A stretch of DNA of 59,996 bases, counting the filler, from Squatina squatina (Eukaryota), in assembly GCA_031763465.1 (NCBI GenBank). It is 4 parts of 3 records of this genome, joined end to end, with 100 filler letters (N's around TTAATTAATTAA, not from the genome) between each part and the next. Parts side by side here need not be neighbours in the genome. Positions count along the whole stretch, not along the records: positions 31,606 to 45,732 come from JARFOE010000162.1; 3 more parts are not named here. One strand, written 5' to 3'. The notes beneath the pieces are model-generated. The model was not told the origin of the DNA. It did no database searches and saw nothing but the letters and a program-made list of their open reading frames with translations. A program made the position numbers and the translations under genes. This document shows, piece after piece, positions 34,912 through 45,732 of this stretch. The first letter of the stretch is position 1; each line of letters opens with the position of its first letter.

Positions 34912-35058
34912 TTTGGTAATGAAGAGCAGCAGCTGGAATGGGCGAAAAGGGAGAGTGAAAGAGCAGAACATGAGAGATTAGAGCGGTTACAAAGGCAAGA
35001 GCAAGAGGACCTGGAGCTTGCCATAGCACTCAGCAAAGCAGAAATGTCAAATGTGTAA
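34912..35058 (+). CDS. EPS15L1: EPS15-like 1 last coding exon (tandem UIM motifs)
   Basis: Acceptor tttttctttccag|TTT. FGNEEQQLEWAKRESERAEHERLERLQRQEQEDLELAIALSKAEMSNV*; recalled human is FGNEEQQLAWAKRESEKAEQERLARLRRQEQEDLELAIALSKADMPAA. Convergent with KLF2, as in human. Confidence 0.94.
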   Translation, partial: FGNEEQQLEWAKRESERAEHERLERLQRQEQEDLELAIALSKAEMSNV

Positions 35059-36901: not shown

Positions 36902-37200
<299 letters not shown>

Positions 37201-37340: not shown

Positions 37341-38301
37341 CTGTGTGTGTCCTGAGGTGGGCCTTGAGGTGCGAGCTCTTGGTGTAGGTCTTGCCGCAGC
37401 CGCTGTAGGTACAGGTGTGAGTGGCCGTCCTCTTCCTGGGCCAGGAACGCCGGCCCCTCTTGGGTTTGCTGTCCAGGAGCTCGAGGGGCGACGAAGGAGG
37501 GGTGAGCNNNNNNNNNNNNNNNNNNNNNNNNNNNNNNNNNNNNNNNNNNNNNNNNNNNNNNNNNNNNNNNNNNNNNNNNNNNNNNNNNNNNNNNNNNNNN
37601 NNNNNNNGGCCGGGCTGCAGGGCCACTGGGTCGTCGAAGAGGCCGTACTGGTTGGGGTAGTGCATGTGGGGCTGGGCGAAGGGGTAGCCGGGCTGGTAGG
37701 GCAGGCCGGGGTGGCACAGCAGCTGGCAGTCGGCGTTCATCAGGTCCCCGGGGCTGAGCGGAGGGGTGACGGTGCCCCCGGGGTGCGGGGGCGAGTTCTG
37801 CAGCCTCTGCTGCTCGCTGTAAGCCACCATGCACGACCCGCTGTCCTCCCGTTTGATCCGCAGGCAGGCCGGGCTGGGCACCATGCCCACGCCCATGCCC
37901 AGCGCCGGGCCGTAGCCCTCCGCGGCCGGCTCCGGCTCGGTCTTGGGTACCTTGGCCAGATCCTGGCCGGGGAAGACTGGGGCGAGCAGGAAGCGGCCCT
38001 GGACGGCGCAGTAGTCGGTCTCCGAGCCCGAGCCCAGCAGCTCGGCCATCAGACTGTAGGCCGGGGGCTCCCCGGCCCCGGGCTGCTGGTAAAACTGGCC
38101 GGGCTCCTGGCCGGGCACCGCATAGTCCGAGGCGCCGGCAGGGTCGCTGCACATGCTGTTCGACAAGATAAAGTCCACATCCAGCAAACTCAGGTCATCA
38201 TCCGCATCGCTGGCCCATGAGAAATTCTCCAAATACTGCATAAAATCCGTCATTGGGCAGTGGCTCTGAGGCTGTTTGGCCCCATGGTCATTTTTCCATT
38301 T
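37341..38301 (-). CDS. KLF2: KLF2 exon 2 (activation/repression regions, NLS, zinc finger 1); CpG-island-like; contains gap 37508-37607
   Basis: Acceptor ttttgttgcag|AAA and donor ACAG|gtaagg. Motifs [29 protein letters not shown] and [55 protein letters not shown]. Confidence 0.95.
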
Positions 38302-38529
38302 CTGCAACAAAAAAAAATTGAGAGGAAAAAATATTAATATTAGGGTCATTTTAATTTTTGCAAAAAAACAATTGCAAAGTTTTTAAAAAAGTTTTTAGAA
38401 TCTTTAATATTTATTAAATCACTGCATTCAATTAGTCTTTAAATCAGGGGAGAAGTGTGTGTGAGTGTGTGTGTTTACATCACTTCCAAGTGCATAGGCT
38501 GCTGTAAAAAAGTTGAAAACATGACTTAC

Positions 38530-38610
38530 GTTGCAATAGTCTTGCTTGTCCCACATCTTGGGAGTTGCAAATGTAGAAATGGACGGTAAGATGGTGCCGC
38601 TCAATGCCAT
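38530..38610 (-). CDS. KLF2: KLF2 exon 1 coding part (27 codons, phase 0)
   Basis: MALSGTILPSISTFATPKMWDKQDYCN|gtaagt matches the KLF2 N-terminus (MALS..ILPS.STFA) and is in phase with exon 2. Confidence 0.93.
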
Positions 38611-38758: not shown

Positions 38759-38790
38759 TTTTAAGTTGTGCAGCGGGTGCCTGCGATTGG
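38759..38790 (-). promoter_or_regulatory. KLF2: KLF2 core promoter: TATA-like CTTAAAA (38759-38765) and CCAAT box (38786-38790)
   Basis: Motifs read directly, 150-180 nt upstream of the ATG. The TSS is not determined. Confidence 0.5.
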
Positions 38791-38880
38791 TAGGATATCG
38801 GCGAGTTAGCCGAGAACTTGAACCAATTGCAGTGGGCTCAGGAAACACGTTCAGGATGAGAATCGTACGCGAGTAAATGT

Positions 38881-38906
38881 CCTAAATTTAGCCGGAGTAT
38901 ATAAAG
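38881..38906 (-). promoter_or_regulatory. KLF2: KLF2 proximal conserved element: TTATATAC-N5-CTAAATTTAG (MEF2 site)
   Basis: Minus strand reads CTTTATATACTCCGGCTAAATTTAGG. The recalled mammalian shear-responsive element is GCTTATATACCGCGGCTAAATTTAGG. The MEF2 consensus YTAWWWWTAR is perfect. Confidence 0.85.
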
Positions 38907-39011
38907 CGAGCACTGGTCGGGAGAGCGAGAGGCCGAGTGGACCATCTCCAGGCGCCTTCCCCTCTTCTTAAAGCTGTCAGGGTTGTGCCGTCTCCATAGG
39001 GACGCTGCACA

Positions 39012-39136
39012 ACACACACACACACTCACTCACTCACTCACATCCAACAGCACGGCTGGACTGACGCCAGCACTGACGCAGGAACTCCCCAGGACAGCCC
39101 AGAACCCCCCCAGACACACACACACACACACACACA
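39012..39136. repeat. (CA)n and (CACT)n microsatellites upstream of KLF2
   Basis: acacacacacacactcactcactcactcaca at 39012-39042 and a (CA)n run at 39114-39136. Confidence 0.85.
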
Positions 39137-39453
39137 GCCAGTGTTAGACTGCACACACAGAGAAATATATAAATAAACCCCCAGTTACTGTTTGTAAATA
39201 ATCGTGTGGCAGCTGCAGCCTCGCCAGGTCGGTCCTATGAAAAATTAACAATACATTGCACATGTGCAAAACAATTAAACTGGGGATTCCAGCCCTCAAA
39301 CTAAAGTCTCAGGCAATTCAGAGCCCGAATTTCAAACTCTGCAACCGGACCACNNNNNNNNNNNNNNNNNNNNNNNNNNNNNNNNNNNNNNNNNNNNNNN
39401 NNNNNNNNNNNNNNNNNNNNNNNNNNNNNNNNNNNNNNNNNNNNNNNNNNNNN

Positions 39454-39480
39454 CCTTATATACCTGGGTTATTTTTAACC
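39454..39480 (+). promoter_or_regulatory. KLF2: Second, inverted TTATATAC-N5-MEF2 composite element
   Basis: CC TTATATAC CTGGG TTATTTTTAA CC: same octamer, same 5-nt spacer ending GG, and a YTAWWWWTAR match. Confidence 0.6.
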
Positions 39481-42400
39481 AAGGGCTCCCTGCTCATTAG
39501 CGCGTTTCCTCTCTTTTCCTCAGCTCAGGAAGCTGACTCGGGCCTGTTTCCTGCTCACACGTAACAGAGGCTCAAAGAATCGCTGAGAACCACCAGCCTG
39601 AGACAGCTCGGCCCTGGAGAGTAAGCTTGGCAACATTTCAAAGTTGACAAAAAGAAGAGAGAAAAAAAAAAACCCGAGAACCCACTGAAGGGATGGAAAA
39701 TTTCCCAATCGCTGTCGGGAAGTCTGAACTATTATTAAAGAGATTTCTTGGTATAATTAGCACTGAAAGCTGGACAGAATAACCCACCTGACCACCGTGA
39801 AGAAGGCTTGAAACAAACTCAAGCCCTGAACCTCGAATTAGTGCTTCGAAAGAACTATAGCGACAGTGTGATTGCTAGATTGCGAACCTTTTCATAATGT
39901 CCCCGAAAGGTTCCCCCAAATTACTGTGTTGAGTGCCAAGAAGCATTTATCTCCCGTTCAAATACAAATCAGAATTACAGGCAGTCACATTTAGACATTG
40001 GAGGGAGCCTGGCTGGTAGGCACCAGCCAAAATGTCCTCCATCAAGCCTCAACTAACCGCAGAGTGTACATACATACACAGGCCTGTCTAAACAAGGCCA
40101 GCTGTCAAAATATTGTCAGCCAGTCTAGGACACAGCTTCTTTCAACTGAACAACAGGATGACGGAAGCCATTTATATCCGTCCCTGCCATAAACTCCACT
40201 CCCTTGGCGCTCAACAGTGGCAGGGAAATTCTGTATCCAAAGCATAAATGCTAGTTTTAACTTCTGCCAATAATAACCCTCTTAGGAAGTAAAAAGTGAC
40301 AAATCTTCATTAAATTCAAATAAAATAGCTCCCACAAAGTAAATTCTCTATGGCTATTATATTTTCATTATGTTAACGTTGTATTCCTACATAAATTAAT
40401 TTTGAAAATAAACCTCGATAATTTAACCTTGGTTGCANNNNNNNNNNNNNNNNNNNNNNNNNNNNNNNNNNNNNNNNNNNNNNNNNNNNNNNNNNNNNNN
40501 NNNNNNNNNNNNNNNNNNNNNNNNNNNNNNNNNNNNNCACAGTGCCACAAGTAGAGAAAAAAATGTTGGCTGCCTCTACTACATTGCTTCTCTGCCCTTT
40601 GATTAAGTACGTTTTTAGTTGCTATGATCAGTAAAAGATTGATGCACAGATGTATTTAAAAAAAGTGGAGTCAGGCTGCTGATTTTAAAAAGATAACACA
40701 TTACAGCAATGTTTTAACCATTTCAGTGGAGGACTTGCAGTTAAAAGCCAGGTGGGAAAATGGAGAGAGCAGTGTGTGTAGGTCAGCTGGCAAGGGCGAA
40801 GTACAAGGATCCTGGGTGACACGCACCTCCCTCGCTTGGCTCACAGGGCTTTCTGCGATCAGACCTGATGAGGTCTCACACACACACACACGACTGCTAG
40901 CAAGCTCAGATGGTCGGGCTGCGTAGCTGATGGACAAGCACATGCTGTTGAGATTTAGGGCGAGTGTGGGGGTTCTTCGGGAGTGTGCGCGTAGAGGGTC
41001 TGAGTATTGGGGGAAGGTGATTTGCAAAGGAACAAAAATGAAAAGTTCAGCCCAGAAGTGAAGCAGAGGTAGAGGTAGGTGTGGGTTCCTCAAGTGTCAC
41101 ATTTGGGTGCTTGAGGAAACCTGGGCTCCTTGAAATCAGCAAGCATCAAGTGGAGCTGCAGGTTTCTGCAGCTAATGACTGCCGTTCCAAGGAGATGGTA
41201 ATCCACTCACTTCAGAATTCAGACCATTTTTTTTCTTTAAAGCAAAGCTATTATGAAAAGCTTTCCTCTTTAAGACTGGGTGGGGAGCACCATGGCTGCT
41301 GAATGTCGGAGAATGTTTATTTGGCAATGAGATGGATAGAAAATTGAAATTGGGGAGAAAACCTGTGTAGTGCGATTGGTGAACAAACAGAAAATTAACT
41401 AGATAGGAGAAAATCAGGTACAGAACCAAGGAAGAAGAAAACAACGAAGGAAGAAGGAAGTGTGGGCACTGATTGTCAGCCTGCTGTGTTGGCACGTGGA
41501 TTCTGCCATATTCGGGAAATGCTTCATCAGATCAGATGTGCTTTCTACAATGTCATTGGGCAGGCCACTGTTAAAATGACTGCATCAGCACCTCCTCCCC
41601 TCAGACTCTCAGAAGCTACATTAAAGGACTTCAGAAAAATTGACAGCAGTTTCAATCAGCTCCCAGCGTTGCCCCAACCATAGAGTCCCCCGAATACACC
41701 TCGTGGTTAATAGCCTAAAGTAAATTGTTCTGTGGCTGTTTAACATCCATTACTTGGCAGACTTTCTTTCTCTTCCTCACTAATTTTCTTCCCCCTTCTT
41801 CAGAGCCTGACTCGATCTGCAGTACTGCCCCACAGGTGGTAGCAATCTTCTGATATCTCAGCCAACTGGCTGCGCAATACAGCGCTCTGGAATGGGAACC
41901 CTGGCTGGAATTATTCCTTCCTTAGTCCAAGGGTGTTGACGTGAATTGTAGCATGCCCCCTGACACTTGGCAGAAATGCGCTAACTCAACACAGACCAGG
42001 GATCAAATCTCCGGCCTTCCTGGTCTCGATGGCTCTATACCACCAGGGTCAGTGTATCTCCAAGTCAGACAGCAGCTGTATTCTGCAGGATTTTCATCAG
42101 GTCTTTAGTTTATTCACCCAACACAAAATTTGTGATGGAAAAGAAGTAGACTACATCCAGATTGTAACCAGATTGGAGTGCGGCATCCCAATGGACCATT
42201 TACTTCCTACTCAATTTACTGTACAGAACTCTCAACCAANNNNNNNNNNNNNNNNNNNNNNNNNNNNNNNNNNNNNNNNNNNNNNNNNNNNNNNNNNNNN
42301 NNNNNNNNNNNNNNNNNNNNNNNNNNNNNNNNNNNNNNNTGGAAATACGTTTATTCTGCATTTCAAAGGCCATAAACTATGTAGCACTTTGCACTTGGTG

Positions 42401-44066: not shown

Positions 44067-45732
44067 ATATAAAAAATACTTTTTAAAACATAATTTAATC
44101 CAACCATGGCAAAGTATGAAATATCTGCAACATATAACTCCCAATGGTCTATCAGTCAAGTGTAACACCGAGTTTGGTGGGGAGGGGCAGTCGCTCCTGG
44201 TAAGATAGTCCATGAAACAATGGCTGCTTAGTTCACGTCGAATGTAAACAATGTTTAAACTCTGGGACATTGCACACTGTGGTTGAACATTAAGACTTGC
44301 ATCAGACAGCCGATGGGTGTGGAAGTTAAATGATGATGCTGGCAAAAAATAATTTAAATATCCCATTATCCAGGGTTGATAACTCTCATTTTGATGGAGC
44401 CCACTATTTCGCTACGTAATACATTTCCATTAGCACTGACCTAGAGTGGGAGAAAGCAAGACGTTGAGAAGTCTAGAACTTGTTCTAGTGGGTTTCCATT
44501 TCAAACTAAGTGCGTAAAATGATTTACTAAAATAGTCTGGATTAGAGGAACATCAAGTCACTAAATATTCAGCAGTCTGTGACTGGTGATTACATTTTAA
44601 TAAACATTCCAGAAATAAGGTTTAGCTTTTTAAAAAAAAATGCTCAAGGTGAGGAGCATCAGTATTGAGAATAGGAACTTTCTAATCCCCTTGTTGGCAC
44701 TTTAAGGTCAGTCACTTTTACACAACCATTGAATATCCACCTCGACTCCACCCCAACCTCTACACAAGTCCAACTGCCCCTGGTGACACATTGCCTGCAC
44801 TTGTCCCTCTTGAGGATGACATTACCAATTTGCAAGTATGATTGGCAGTCTTGCTGATTAACAGTCTGAGCTCATGCAGATAGGATTCTTACAGCTTGTA
44901 CTTTCATCCAGTTCGTATGGGGTAGAATCAAACCCAGGACCCAGAGGCAATGTCAGTGCACTAATGGACTACAGAAGCCCGCCACAAGCACTGCTTGAAA
45001 GTGATTCTTTCCCTCTCTCCCATCCTGTCTCCAAGTTATCCACACGTCACACAGTTCCTTGGCCAAGCAGGCAGGCTGAAGGGAAAAAGCCACCAGGTCA
45101 CTCCAAACACATACAAATGGCCTGTTCGGGTGAAGCAGTCAGAAAGCTTTGCAAGCAGATCATCACACTCATCTGAGGAATGGTGCACGTGCCTTAAAAA
45201 AGGCACAGGCGAGGTGAAAACGTTCACATTCATGCTGAAGCATCCTGCAGAATTAACAGCACCTGGTGTATGAGTTAAGGGTGCTGCGTGTTCAAAGATT
45301 GGAGTGTCCTCCCCTCCCTCACCTGTGCATCCCAACCCTCCGCCCCCGAGCTGAACAGGCAGTCTTGTAGGTTTGCTAAGCACTTGTCTAGGGAAAAGAA
45401 CTCACCAAAAGGTTGACAGATTCAATAACATCGAGAAATACTTCATTTTTCCGATACTTGATCCCCTCTGATCTCCAAGACACAGCATTGGTAACTGTTG
45501 CTGGTGGGCGGGGAGCACCAGTGTCTAGTTTATGACCTTCCTGCGTGATGTACCTAAGATCGGAAGAAACAGGTTGGAGACTGATCCAACAGAGGCAGAT
45601 TCAGCACATGACACCCAAATGTTGAACTTGTACAGCAGCCACTTTCTGCATTCTGAACCCAGTGATCATATTGAATCGGCAGCAGACTCGAAGGGCGTAC
45701 TCCTACTCTGTGTGCTCTTATTTCTTATGTAG

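What the first reader, a model, noticed from the sequence alone, without database searches (positions are those of the whole stretch)
38881..39480. KLF2 promoter has two inverted copies of a TTATATAC-N5-MEF2 composite element with identical spacing
Seen: the minus strand at 38882-38904 reads TTATATAC-TCCGG-CTAAATTTAG, and the plus strand at 39456-39478 reads TTATATAC-CTGGG-TTATTTTTAA. The octamer is the same, the spacer is 5 nt ending GG in both, and the two 10-mers differ but both fit YTAWWWWTAR. Established, from recall: the mammalian KLF2 flow-response element is TTATATAC-CGCGG-CTAAATTTAG and is bound by MEF2 downstream of MEK5-ERK5. Inference: divergent spacer and MEF2 bases with a fixed octamer and distance suggest a spacing-constrained grammar (MEF2 plus an unidentified TTATATAC-binding partner), not a recent duplication. 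I know of no description of the distal copy.
Basis: partly seen in the sequence, partly recalled or inferred. Interest (0 to 1): 0.72.

Follow-up and report, generated by a model that had tools for sequence, protein, structure and literature searches.

The report
Known KLF2 flow switch, distal copy
Both short motifs are in the sequence and fit a MEF2-plus-TATA-binding-protein switch already described for human and mouse KLF2; the second copy lies beyond an assembly gap, is kept in related species, and is likely a separate KLF2 enhancer rather than a second copy inside the promoter.

Summary
Both 23-base motifs are exactly as reported. A second copy this close in the scaffold is unlikely by chance (expected about 1e-4). 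But it starts 2 bases after a 100-N gap of unknown size. Relatives' contigs imply at least about 620 more bases there, and gaps in this stretch hide most AP1M1 exons. So the 574-base distance and the 'inverted pair in the promoter' are not shown. The distal block is single-copy and present in 5 of 6 related organisms. In the three tested it is more conserved than nearby sequence. The octamer read on the other strand is a TATA box. [quoted passage not shown] The grammar and the partner are therefore known. The distal copy is likely this genome's counterpart of one of those enhancers. A near-match upstream of a KLF17-like gene is not in the preprint's main text. The scan's earlier notes held nothing on this element.

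The parts
38882..38906 (+). Proximal MEF2-TATA double motif of the KLF2 promoter: MEF2 10-mer 38882-38891, TATA box 38898-38905 pointing away from KLF2
   Evidence: Sequence; the same MEF2 10-mer is the mutated site in the mouse Klf2 reporter in PMC4108324
39455..39478 (-). Distal MEF2-TATA double motif: MEF2 10-mer 39478-39469, TATA box 39462-39455; points towards KLF2 if the scaffold orientation is right
   Evidence: Sequence; no difference inside the motif in organism D (3 of 3 differences listed lie outside)
39454..39575 (.). Conserved non-coding block holding the distal motif, four ETS-type cores (39510, 39520, 39527, 39552) and one AP-1-like site (39534); likely enhancer core, its other side lies in the gap
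   Evidence: 3, 3 and 6 differences in 122 bases in organisms D, E, F; more conserved than nearby sequence, p 0.033, 0.002, 0.007; motifs, no chance control for them
39354..39453 (.). 100-N assembly gap of unknown size between the promoter contig and the distal contig
   Evidence: contigs of relatives run 346-396 bases past its left edge and 285-340 bases before its right edge without joining
38759..38845 (.). KLF2 core promoter: TATA-like TTAAAA (38764-38759, minus strand), two CCAAT boxes (38790 minus, 38823 plus), ETS core (38840)
   Evidence: Sequence and motif scan; the start site is inferred, not measured
38531..38610 (-). KLF2 coding exon 1 (approximate 3' boundary)
   Evidence: Translation MALSGTILPS...; name recalled from the family, supported by neighbours
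37342..38302 (-). KLF2 exon 2, interrupted by a 100-N gap at 37508-37607, ending in zinc finger 1
   Evidence: zf-C2H2, E 3.4e-6
36904..37011 (-). Sequenced part of KLF2 exon 3 (zinc finger 2 and start of 3)
   Evidence: zf-C2H2, E 9.2e-7
45397..45555 (-). AP1M1 exon (residues about 133-185 of 423); the exons for residues 186-423 should lie between here and KLF2 and are missing, which shows the gaps are not to scale
   Evidence: AP-1 mu-1, E 3.3e-28
34912..35058 (+). Last coding exon of an EPS15L1-like gene, convergent with KLF2
   Evidence: Translation; name recalled, Pfam gave no family

Best explanation
Each copy is a MEF2 consensus site followed six bases later by a TATA box, the layout of the published MEF2-TBP double motif; the proximal copy is in the KLF2 promoter, and the distal copy is likely the core of a separate KLF2 enhancer that is predicted to bind MEF2, TBP and ETS factors and would help switch KLF2 on under blood flow. 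Shown here: the sequence, the TATA reading, the gap, single copy, conservation in relatives. Shown in the preprint for human and mouse: MEF2 and TBP binding, flow-increased TBP binding, need for both halves. Inferred: that the same proteins act here, that the distal block serves KLF2, and that it is the counterpart of KLF2-41 or KLF2-66 (about 60%; -41 slightly favoured because no GATA site is seen on the sequenced side). Its true distance is at least about 1.1 kb from the proximal motif and may be tens of kb.
For: The TATAWAWR match is on the strand opposite the octamer in both copies. A 10-base MEF2 site, 3 spacer bases and a 12-base TATA motif give 25 bases, the span the preprint gives for the KLF2 promoter motif (110-134 upstream); this arithmetic is mine, the figures were not seen. 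The preprint reports the motif in two upstream KLF2 enhancers with ETS sites, conserved to zebrafish. The distal block has four ETS cores within 100 bases. It is covered from its first base in 6 of 8 runs, 5 of 6 organisms, and is more conserved than nearby sequence in D, E and F. AP1M1 exons are missing between KLF2 and 45397, so at least one of the three gaps hides many kb.
Against: No contig bridges the gap in 8 of 8 runs, so the link to KLF2 rests on the scaffold. No human, mouse or zebrafish enhancer sequence could be aligned. Only one distal copy was found in 200 kb of scaffold (110 kb non-N), whereas mammals have two; the assembly is very incomplete. In E one and in F two differences were not listed and could lie in the motif. 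Organism B showed no cover of the motif in 2 of 2 runs. Some 100-N gaps here are probably small (the one inside exon 2), so a location within a few kb is not excluded. The key source is a preprint whose figures and supplements I could not see.
Confidence: 0.7

Rival explanations
1. The distal copy is a lineage-specific promoter-proximal element only 1-3 kb upstream of KLF2, not the counterpart of either mammalian enhancer.
For: It is the first contig after the promoter contig in the scaffold. The minimum gap implied by relatives is only about 620-670 bases, so a single repeat between the two contig ends could close it.
Against: The preprint finds no marks or human-mouse conservation directly upstream of the promoter and places the other double motifs at -41 and -66 kb. 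Gaps in this stretch hide most of a gene.
Confidence: 0.2
2. The double motifs are MEF2-driven core promoters (TATA plus initiator) that fire non-coding RNA: away from KLF2 at the promoter, towards it at the distal block. TBP would then act in ordinary initiation. This can hold together with the enhancer reading.
For: In D, E and F the loose ends next to the distal motif put a BBCABW initiator match 30 bases from the first T of the TATA box (counted by hand; consensus recalled). L060 has one at position 32, and 0 of 26 background matches have one at 29-34. A human 'KLF2 divergent transcript' is annotated (PMC13377820; its start site was not given).
Against: The proximal copy and the KLF17-like copy lack the initiator match. 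The distal match is the start of a CA repeat, which makes such matches easily. The test was post hoc. The preprint found only weak Pol II, TFIIB and TFIIE at the enhancers against strong TBP, though it does not rule out enhancer RNA initiation.
Confidence: 0.2
3. The distal contig is misplaced and belongs to another locus, for example an enhancer of another KLF gene.
For: Heavily gapped scaffold (92 gaps in 200 kb); no bridging contig; the same motif occurs at other KLF genes.
Against: The placement between KLF2 and AP1M1 is where the mammalian enhancers are expected (gene order recalled; neighbours shown). A chance placement of 1 of 16 other strict matches next to KLF2 is very unlikely.
Confidence: 0.06
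4. The distal copy is a chance match or a neutral remnant of an inverted duplication.
For: Genome-wide matches do not exceed the reversed control (17 against 20; 55 against 57), so most matches elsewhere are background.
Against: Expected count near KLF2 about 1e-4; conserved above nearby sequence in three organisms; flanks unrelated to the promoter.
Confidence: 0.03

Closest known systems
MEF2-TBP double motif of KLF2, KLF4, KLF6 and KLF7 regulatory elements (Fleisinger et al., bioRxiv 10.64898/2026.02.04.703710; main text read in large part, figures and supplements not seen)
   Same: MEF2 site next to a TATA/TBP motif at fixed spacing; present in the KLF2 promoter and again upstream; ETS sites nearby; conserved more than its surroundings; rare as a functional element
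   Different: [quoted passage not shown] No binding or activity data exist for this genome, and only one distal copy is in this assembly.
KLF2-41 and KLF2-66 enhancers (mouse Klf2 -50 kb enhancer of bioRxiv 10.1101/2022.09.29.510167, passages seen, is the stated orthologue of KLF2-66)
   Same: Distal conserved block upstream of KLF2 with the double motif and several ETS cores
   Different: Distance unknown here; orthology not tested by alignment. No GATA site in 39454-39800 (a KLF2-66 feature); two RBPJ-like hexamers at 39584 and 39707 (a KLF2-41 feature), without a chance control.
Mouse Klf2 proximal promoter MEF2 site (PMC4108324, passages seen; the original papers by Kumar 2005 and Parmar 2006 were not held)
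   Same: Identical MEF2 10-mer in the proximal copy; its mutation strongly lowers reporter activity in mouse cells
   Different: That paper does not address the neighbouring A/T-rich half in the passages seen

Membership tests
KLF-type MEF2-TBP double motif | MEF2 consensus site directly beside a TBP/TATA motif | tested here: met
   Both copies: YTAWWWWTAR and TATAWAWR
KLF-type MEF2-TBP double motif | Fixed spacer (3 bp in the preprint's motif definition) | tested here: met
   The distal spacing equals the promoter spacing exactly. 10+3+12 = 25 bases fits the published span; the motif boundaries are in figures not seen, so the conversion is inferred.
KLF-type MEF2-TBP double motif | Lies in a regulatory element of a KLF gene | tested here: inconclusive
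   Met for the proximal copy (same contig as KLF2 exon 1); the distal copy is linked by scaffold only
KLF-type MEF2-TBP double motif | Conserved more deeply than surrounding sequence | tested here: met
   122-base block against nearby sequence: D 3/122 vs 7/63, F 6/122 vs 11/62, E 3/122 vs 64/573 (two runs of one sample); p 0.033, 0.007, 0.002. Base-level identity of the motif itself is shown for D only.
KLF-type MEF2-TBP double motif | ETS motifs in the same element | tested here: met
   Four ETS cores at 39510-39552; one CAGGAAA at 38839-38845; presence only, no chance control
KLF-type MEF2-TBP double motif | MEF2 and TBP bind, TBP more under flow; both halves needed for activity | not testable with these tools
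   Shown for human and mouse elements in the preprint
Orthologue of KLF2-41 or KLF2-66 | Sequence alignment and position relative to KLF2 | not testable with these tools
   No vertebrate reference genomes are offered; the gap is not bridged
Orthologue of KLF2-41 or KLF2-66 | GATA motifs (KLF2-66) or RBPJ motifs without GATA (KLF2-41) | tested here: inconclusive
   0 GATA and 2 RBPJ-like hexamers in 39454-39800; the other side of the element is in the gap
TATA-initiator core promoter | Initiator about 30 bases downstream of the TATA box | tested here: inconclusive
   Match beside the distal copy in 3 of 3 relatives with loose ends shown (by hand) and in L060; none in the proximal or KLF17-like copies; 0 of 26 background
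TATA-initiator core promoter | Transcripts start there | not testable with these tools
   Only contigs were on offer, which cannot show a start site
Recent inverted duplication | Similar flanks around both copies | tested here: not met
   Best blastn E 2.8; 95 of 500 shuffles reach the flank score

The most novel reading that the evidence does not exclude
The MEF2-TBP code is older and wider than published: it sits at KLF2 twice and upstream of KLF17 in this early-branching jawed vertebrate, and each unit is a MEF2-gated TATA-initiator core promoter that fires a non-coding RNA, so flow-induced TBP loading would be real initiation at a fixed start 30 bases downstream rather than TBP acting as an ordinary transcription factor.
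Probability: 0.15. Interest if true: 0.55.

Novelty: new member of a known kind. Interest (0 to 1): 0.22.

Why it matters
KLF2 is the main flow-induced protective factor of blood-vessel lining. If the units also start non-coding RNA at a fixed site, that would bear on the preprint's open question of what TBP does there.

Tried and rejected
Bridging the gap: 8 public runs laid, none joins across it; the degenerate promoter copy L002 does not reach the distal block. Organism B: no cover of the distal motif in 2 runs, which proves nothing. RNA: no RNA holder listed. Genome-wide spacing: N4 44 (control 59), N5 55 (57), N6 30 (62); N5 against N4 p 0.31, N5 against control p 0.92; the three-way chi-square (p 0.026) comes from the low N6 count. 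N3 and N7 were not run genome-wide. Second distal copy: none with up to one mismatch in either half in 200 kb of scaffold. KLF6 promoter: in a gap. KLF4 and KLF7: not identified among 16 matches, 11 of the other 15 translated; the C235 stretch gave no motif and no KLF exon. Placing L060 by overlap failed; only a repeat matched. Pfam on 146 of 198 open frames near the C176 gene gave one uninformative hit; RAD23-type search found only C162. The protein atlas gave no result for either KLF exon. A CArG/SRF reading of the octamer was considered by eye and dropped: the closing GG is missing in both copies. Papers: three not held; searches found nothing; one search (KLF2, shark, MEF2, enhancer) listed 6 papers, none on this topic by title and abstract start. 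Earlier scan notes: nothing relevant.

Full report
Observation. The two motifs are present letter for letter at 38882-38904 (minus) and 39456-39478 (plus). The stretch is G000:C162. The gene below them is KLF2-like: exon 1, exon 2 and the zinc fingers translate. It lies between an EPS15L1-like last exon (name recalled) and an AP-1 mu-1 exon, the gene order I recall for human KLF2.

Chance. The strict pattern has 17 matches in the 1.52-Gb assembly against 20 for the reversed control, and 2 of the 17 are these copies (counts may be lower bounds). A further copy in the 13,317 sequenced bases of this stretch is expected 1.3-1.4e-4 times. The pair is not chance, but the pattern is not enriched genome-wide. 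A broader MEF2-N-TATA pattern gave 44, 55 and 30 matches for N4, N5 and N6 against controls of 59, 57 and 62. Of 30 of the 55 N5 matches examined, 7 lie in the same repeat end.

The gap. The distal octamer begins 2 bases after a 100-N gap. Contigs from 8 public runs of six related organisms were laid on the region; none joins across it. In organisms A and D one contig runs 346 and 396 bases past the left edge and another starts 307 bases before the right edge, so the gap holds at least about 620-670 bases there if the contigs overlap by at most 30. The scaffold is also strongly compressed. An AP1M1 exon for residues 133-185 of 423 lies at 45397-45555 on the minus strand. No exon for the remaining residues was found between it and KLF2, either by the family search or among stop-free frames of 35 residues or more. 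At least one of the three gaps therefore hides many kb. The copies are at least about 1.1 kb apart, with no upper bound, and their inverted orientation rests on the scaffold.

Conservation. The distal contig is single-copy in G000. It is covered from its first base in 6 of 8 runs, organisms A, C, D, E and F; organism B gave no cover in 2 runs. In the first 122 bases D, E and F differ at 3, 3 and 6 places, against 7 of 63 (D) and 11 of 62 (F) just left of the gap and 64 of 573 further along the contig (E); Fisher p 0.033, 0.002 and 0.007 for D, E and F. All three differences in D lie outside the motif; one in E and two in F were not listed and could lie in it; the tables for A and C were cut. 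The flanks of the two copies do not align, so this is not a recent duplication.

What the octamer is. Read on the other strand it is G followed by TATATAA, continuing to a TATAWAWR match in both copies. I noted this before finding the literature (note). The preprint 10.64898/2026.02.04.703710 describes exactly this element. I read its abstract, introduction, results, discussion and two methods sections but not its figures or supplements. [quoted passage not shown] It also reports loss of reliable enhancer activity on mutating either half, TBP binding that rises with shear, and the same motif at KLF4-148 and the KLF6 and KLF7 promoters. Its alignment runs from human to zebrafish; 'shark' and 'KLF17' do not occur in the main text. 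PMC4108324 (passages) confirms the same MEF2 10-mer in the mouse promoter and the effect of mutating it.

Mechanism. Inferred from the mammalian work: shear activates MEK5-ERK5, MEF2 occupies the 10-mer, TBP is loaded on the adjacent TATA sequence at a fixed distance, and ETS factors restrict activity to endothelium. The distal block has the needed parts, including four ETS cores within 100 bases. I put about 0.9 on both copies being this double motif, about 0.85 on the distal block serving KLF2, and about 0.6 on it being the counterpart of KLF2-41 or KLF2-66. The sequenced side has no GATA site and two RBPJ-like hexamers, which leans weakly to KLF2-41.

Other copies. Unplaced contig L060 has a strict MEF2 site, five bases and a TATA box in a CpG-rich promoter-like sequence whose upstream flank resembles the KLF2 promoter flank (3 of 500 shuffles reach the score); its gene is unknown. 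The nearest upstream contig of a second KLF gene on C176 has a near-match with one MEF2 mismatch and the same spacing. It was one of 6 hits of a relaxed scan over 60,561 sequenced bases and was singled out afterwards; the tighter pattern is expected 0.017 times there. DMAP1 lies 0.7 Mb away on the same scaffold, which suggests KLF17 by recalled gene order; a 5.9-kb gap separates the motif from the gene. The KLF6 promoter is in a gap.

Core-promoter rival. An initiator match lies 30 bases from the TATA start beside the distal copy in three relatives (by hand) and at position 32 in L060, against 0 of 26 background matches. The proximal and KLF17-like copies lack it, the distal match is the start of a CA repeat, and the preprint found weak Pol II and TFIIB at the enhancers. 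A human KLF2 divergent transcript is annotated (PMC13377820, passages). This remains a weak, testable lead.

Verdict. Real and conserved, but a new instance of a published element. I found no description of this copy in the searches, which cover open-access papers and preprints only. Interest 0.22.

Noticed in passing
L002 (G000:C426191) 100-540: Unplaced contig about 75-79% identical to the KLF2 promoter region, with CpG loss, a 6-base deletion in the double motif and loss of one CCAAT box; looks like a decayed duplicate of the promoter.
   Followed up: partly
L060 (G000:C353129) 281-304: Strict MEF2-N5-TATA motif in a CpG-rich promoter-like contig whose flank resembles the KLF2 promoter; about 330 bases further on are GC-box, CRE-like and ETS motifs. 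Candidate promoter of another KLF gene (KLF4 or KLF7 not excluded); gene not identified.
   Followed up: partly
L082 6875-6898 (G000:C176:10086874): Near-match double motif with ETS and CCAAT sites upstream, on the contig nearest the 5' side of a KLF17-like gene; KLF17 is not in the preprint's main text.
   Followed up: partly
L010, L011, L044, L050, L053, L054, L061: The 3' end of a common short repeat yields MEF2-N5-TATA matches (7 of 30 matches examined), so this repeat can create the double motif by point changes and inflates background counts.
   Followed up: no
L047 (G000:C91:589191-589214): Another MEF2-N5-TATA match in a 50% GC flank with a CCAAT box upstream; neighbouring gene not checked.
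   Followed up: no
L023 53-850 (G000:C162 about 9590050-9590850): Paralemmin-like exons (name recalled) about 15 kb nominal beyond the AP1M1 exon; a RAD23-type XPC-binding exon lies at C162:9510495.
   Followed up: no
window 37090-37200: Short tandem copies of a roughly 33-base unit in KLF2 intron 2 (seen).
   Followed up: no
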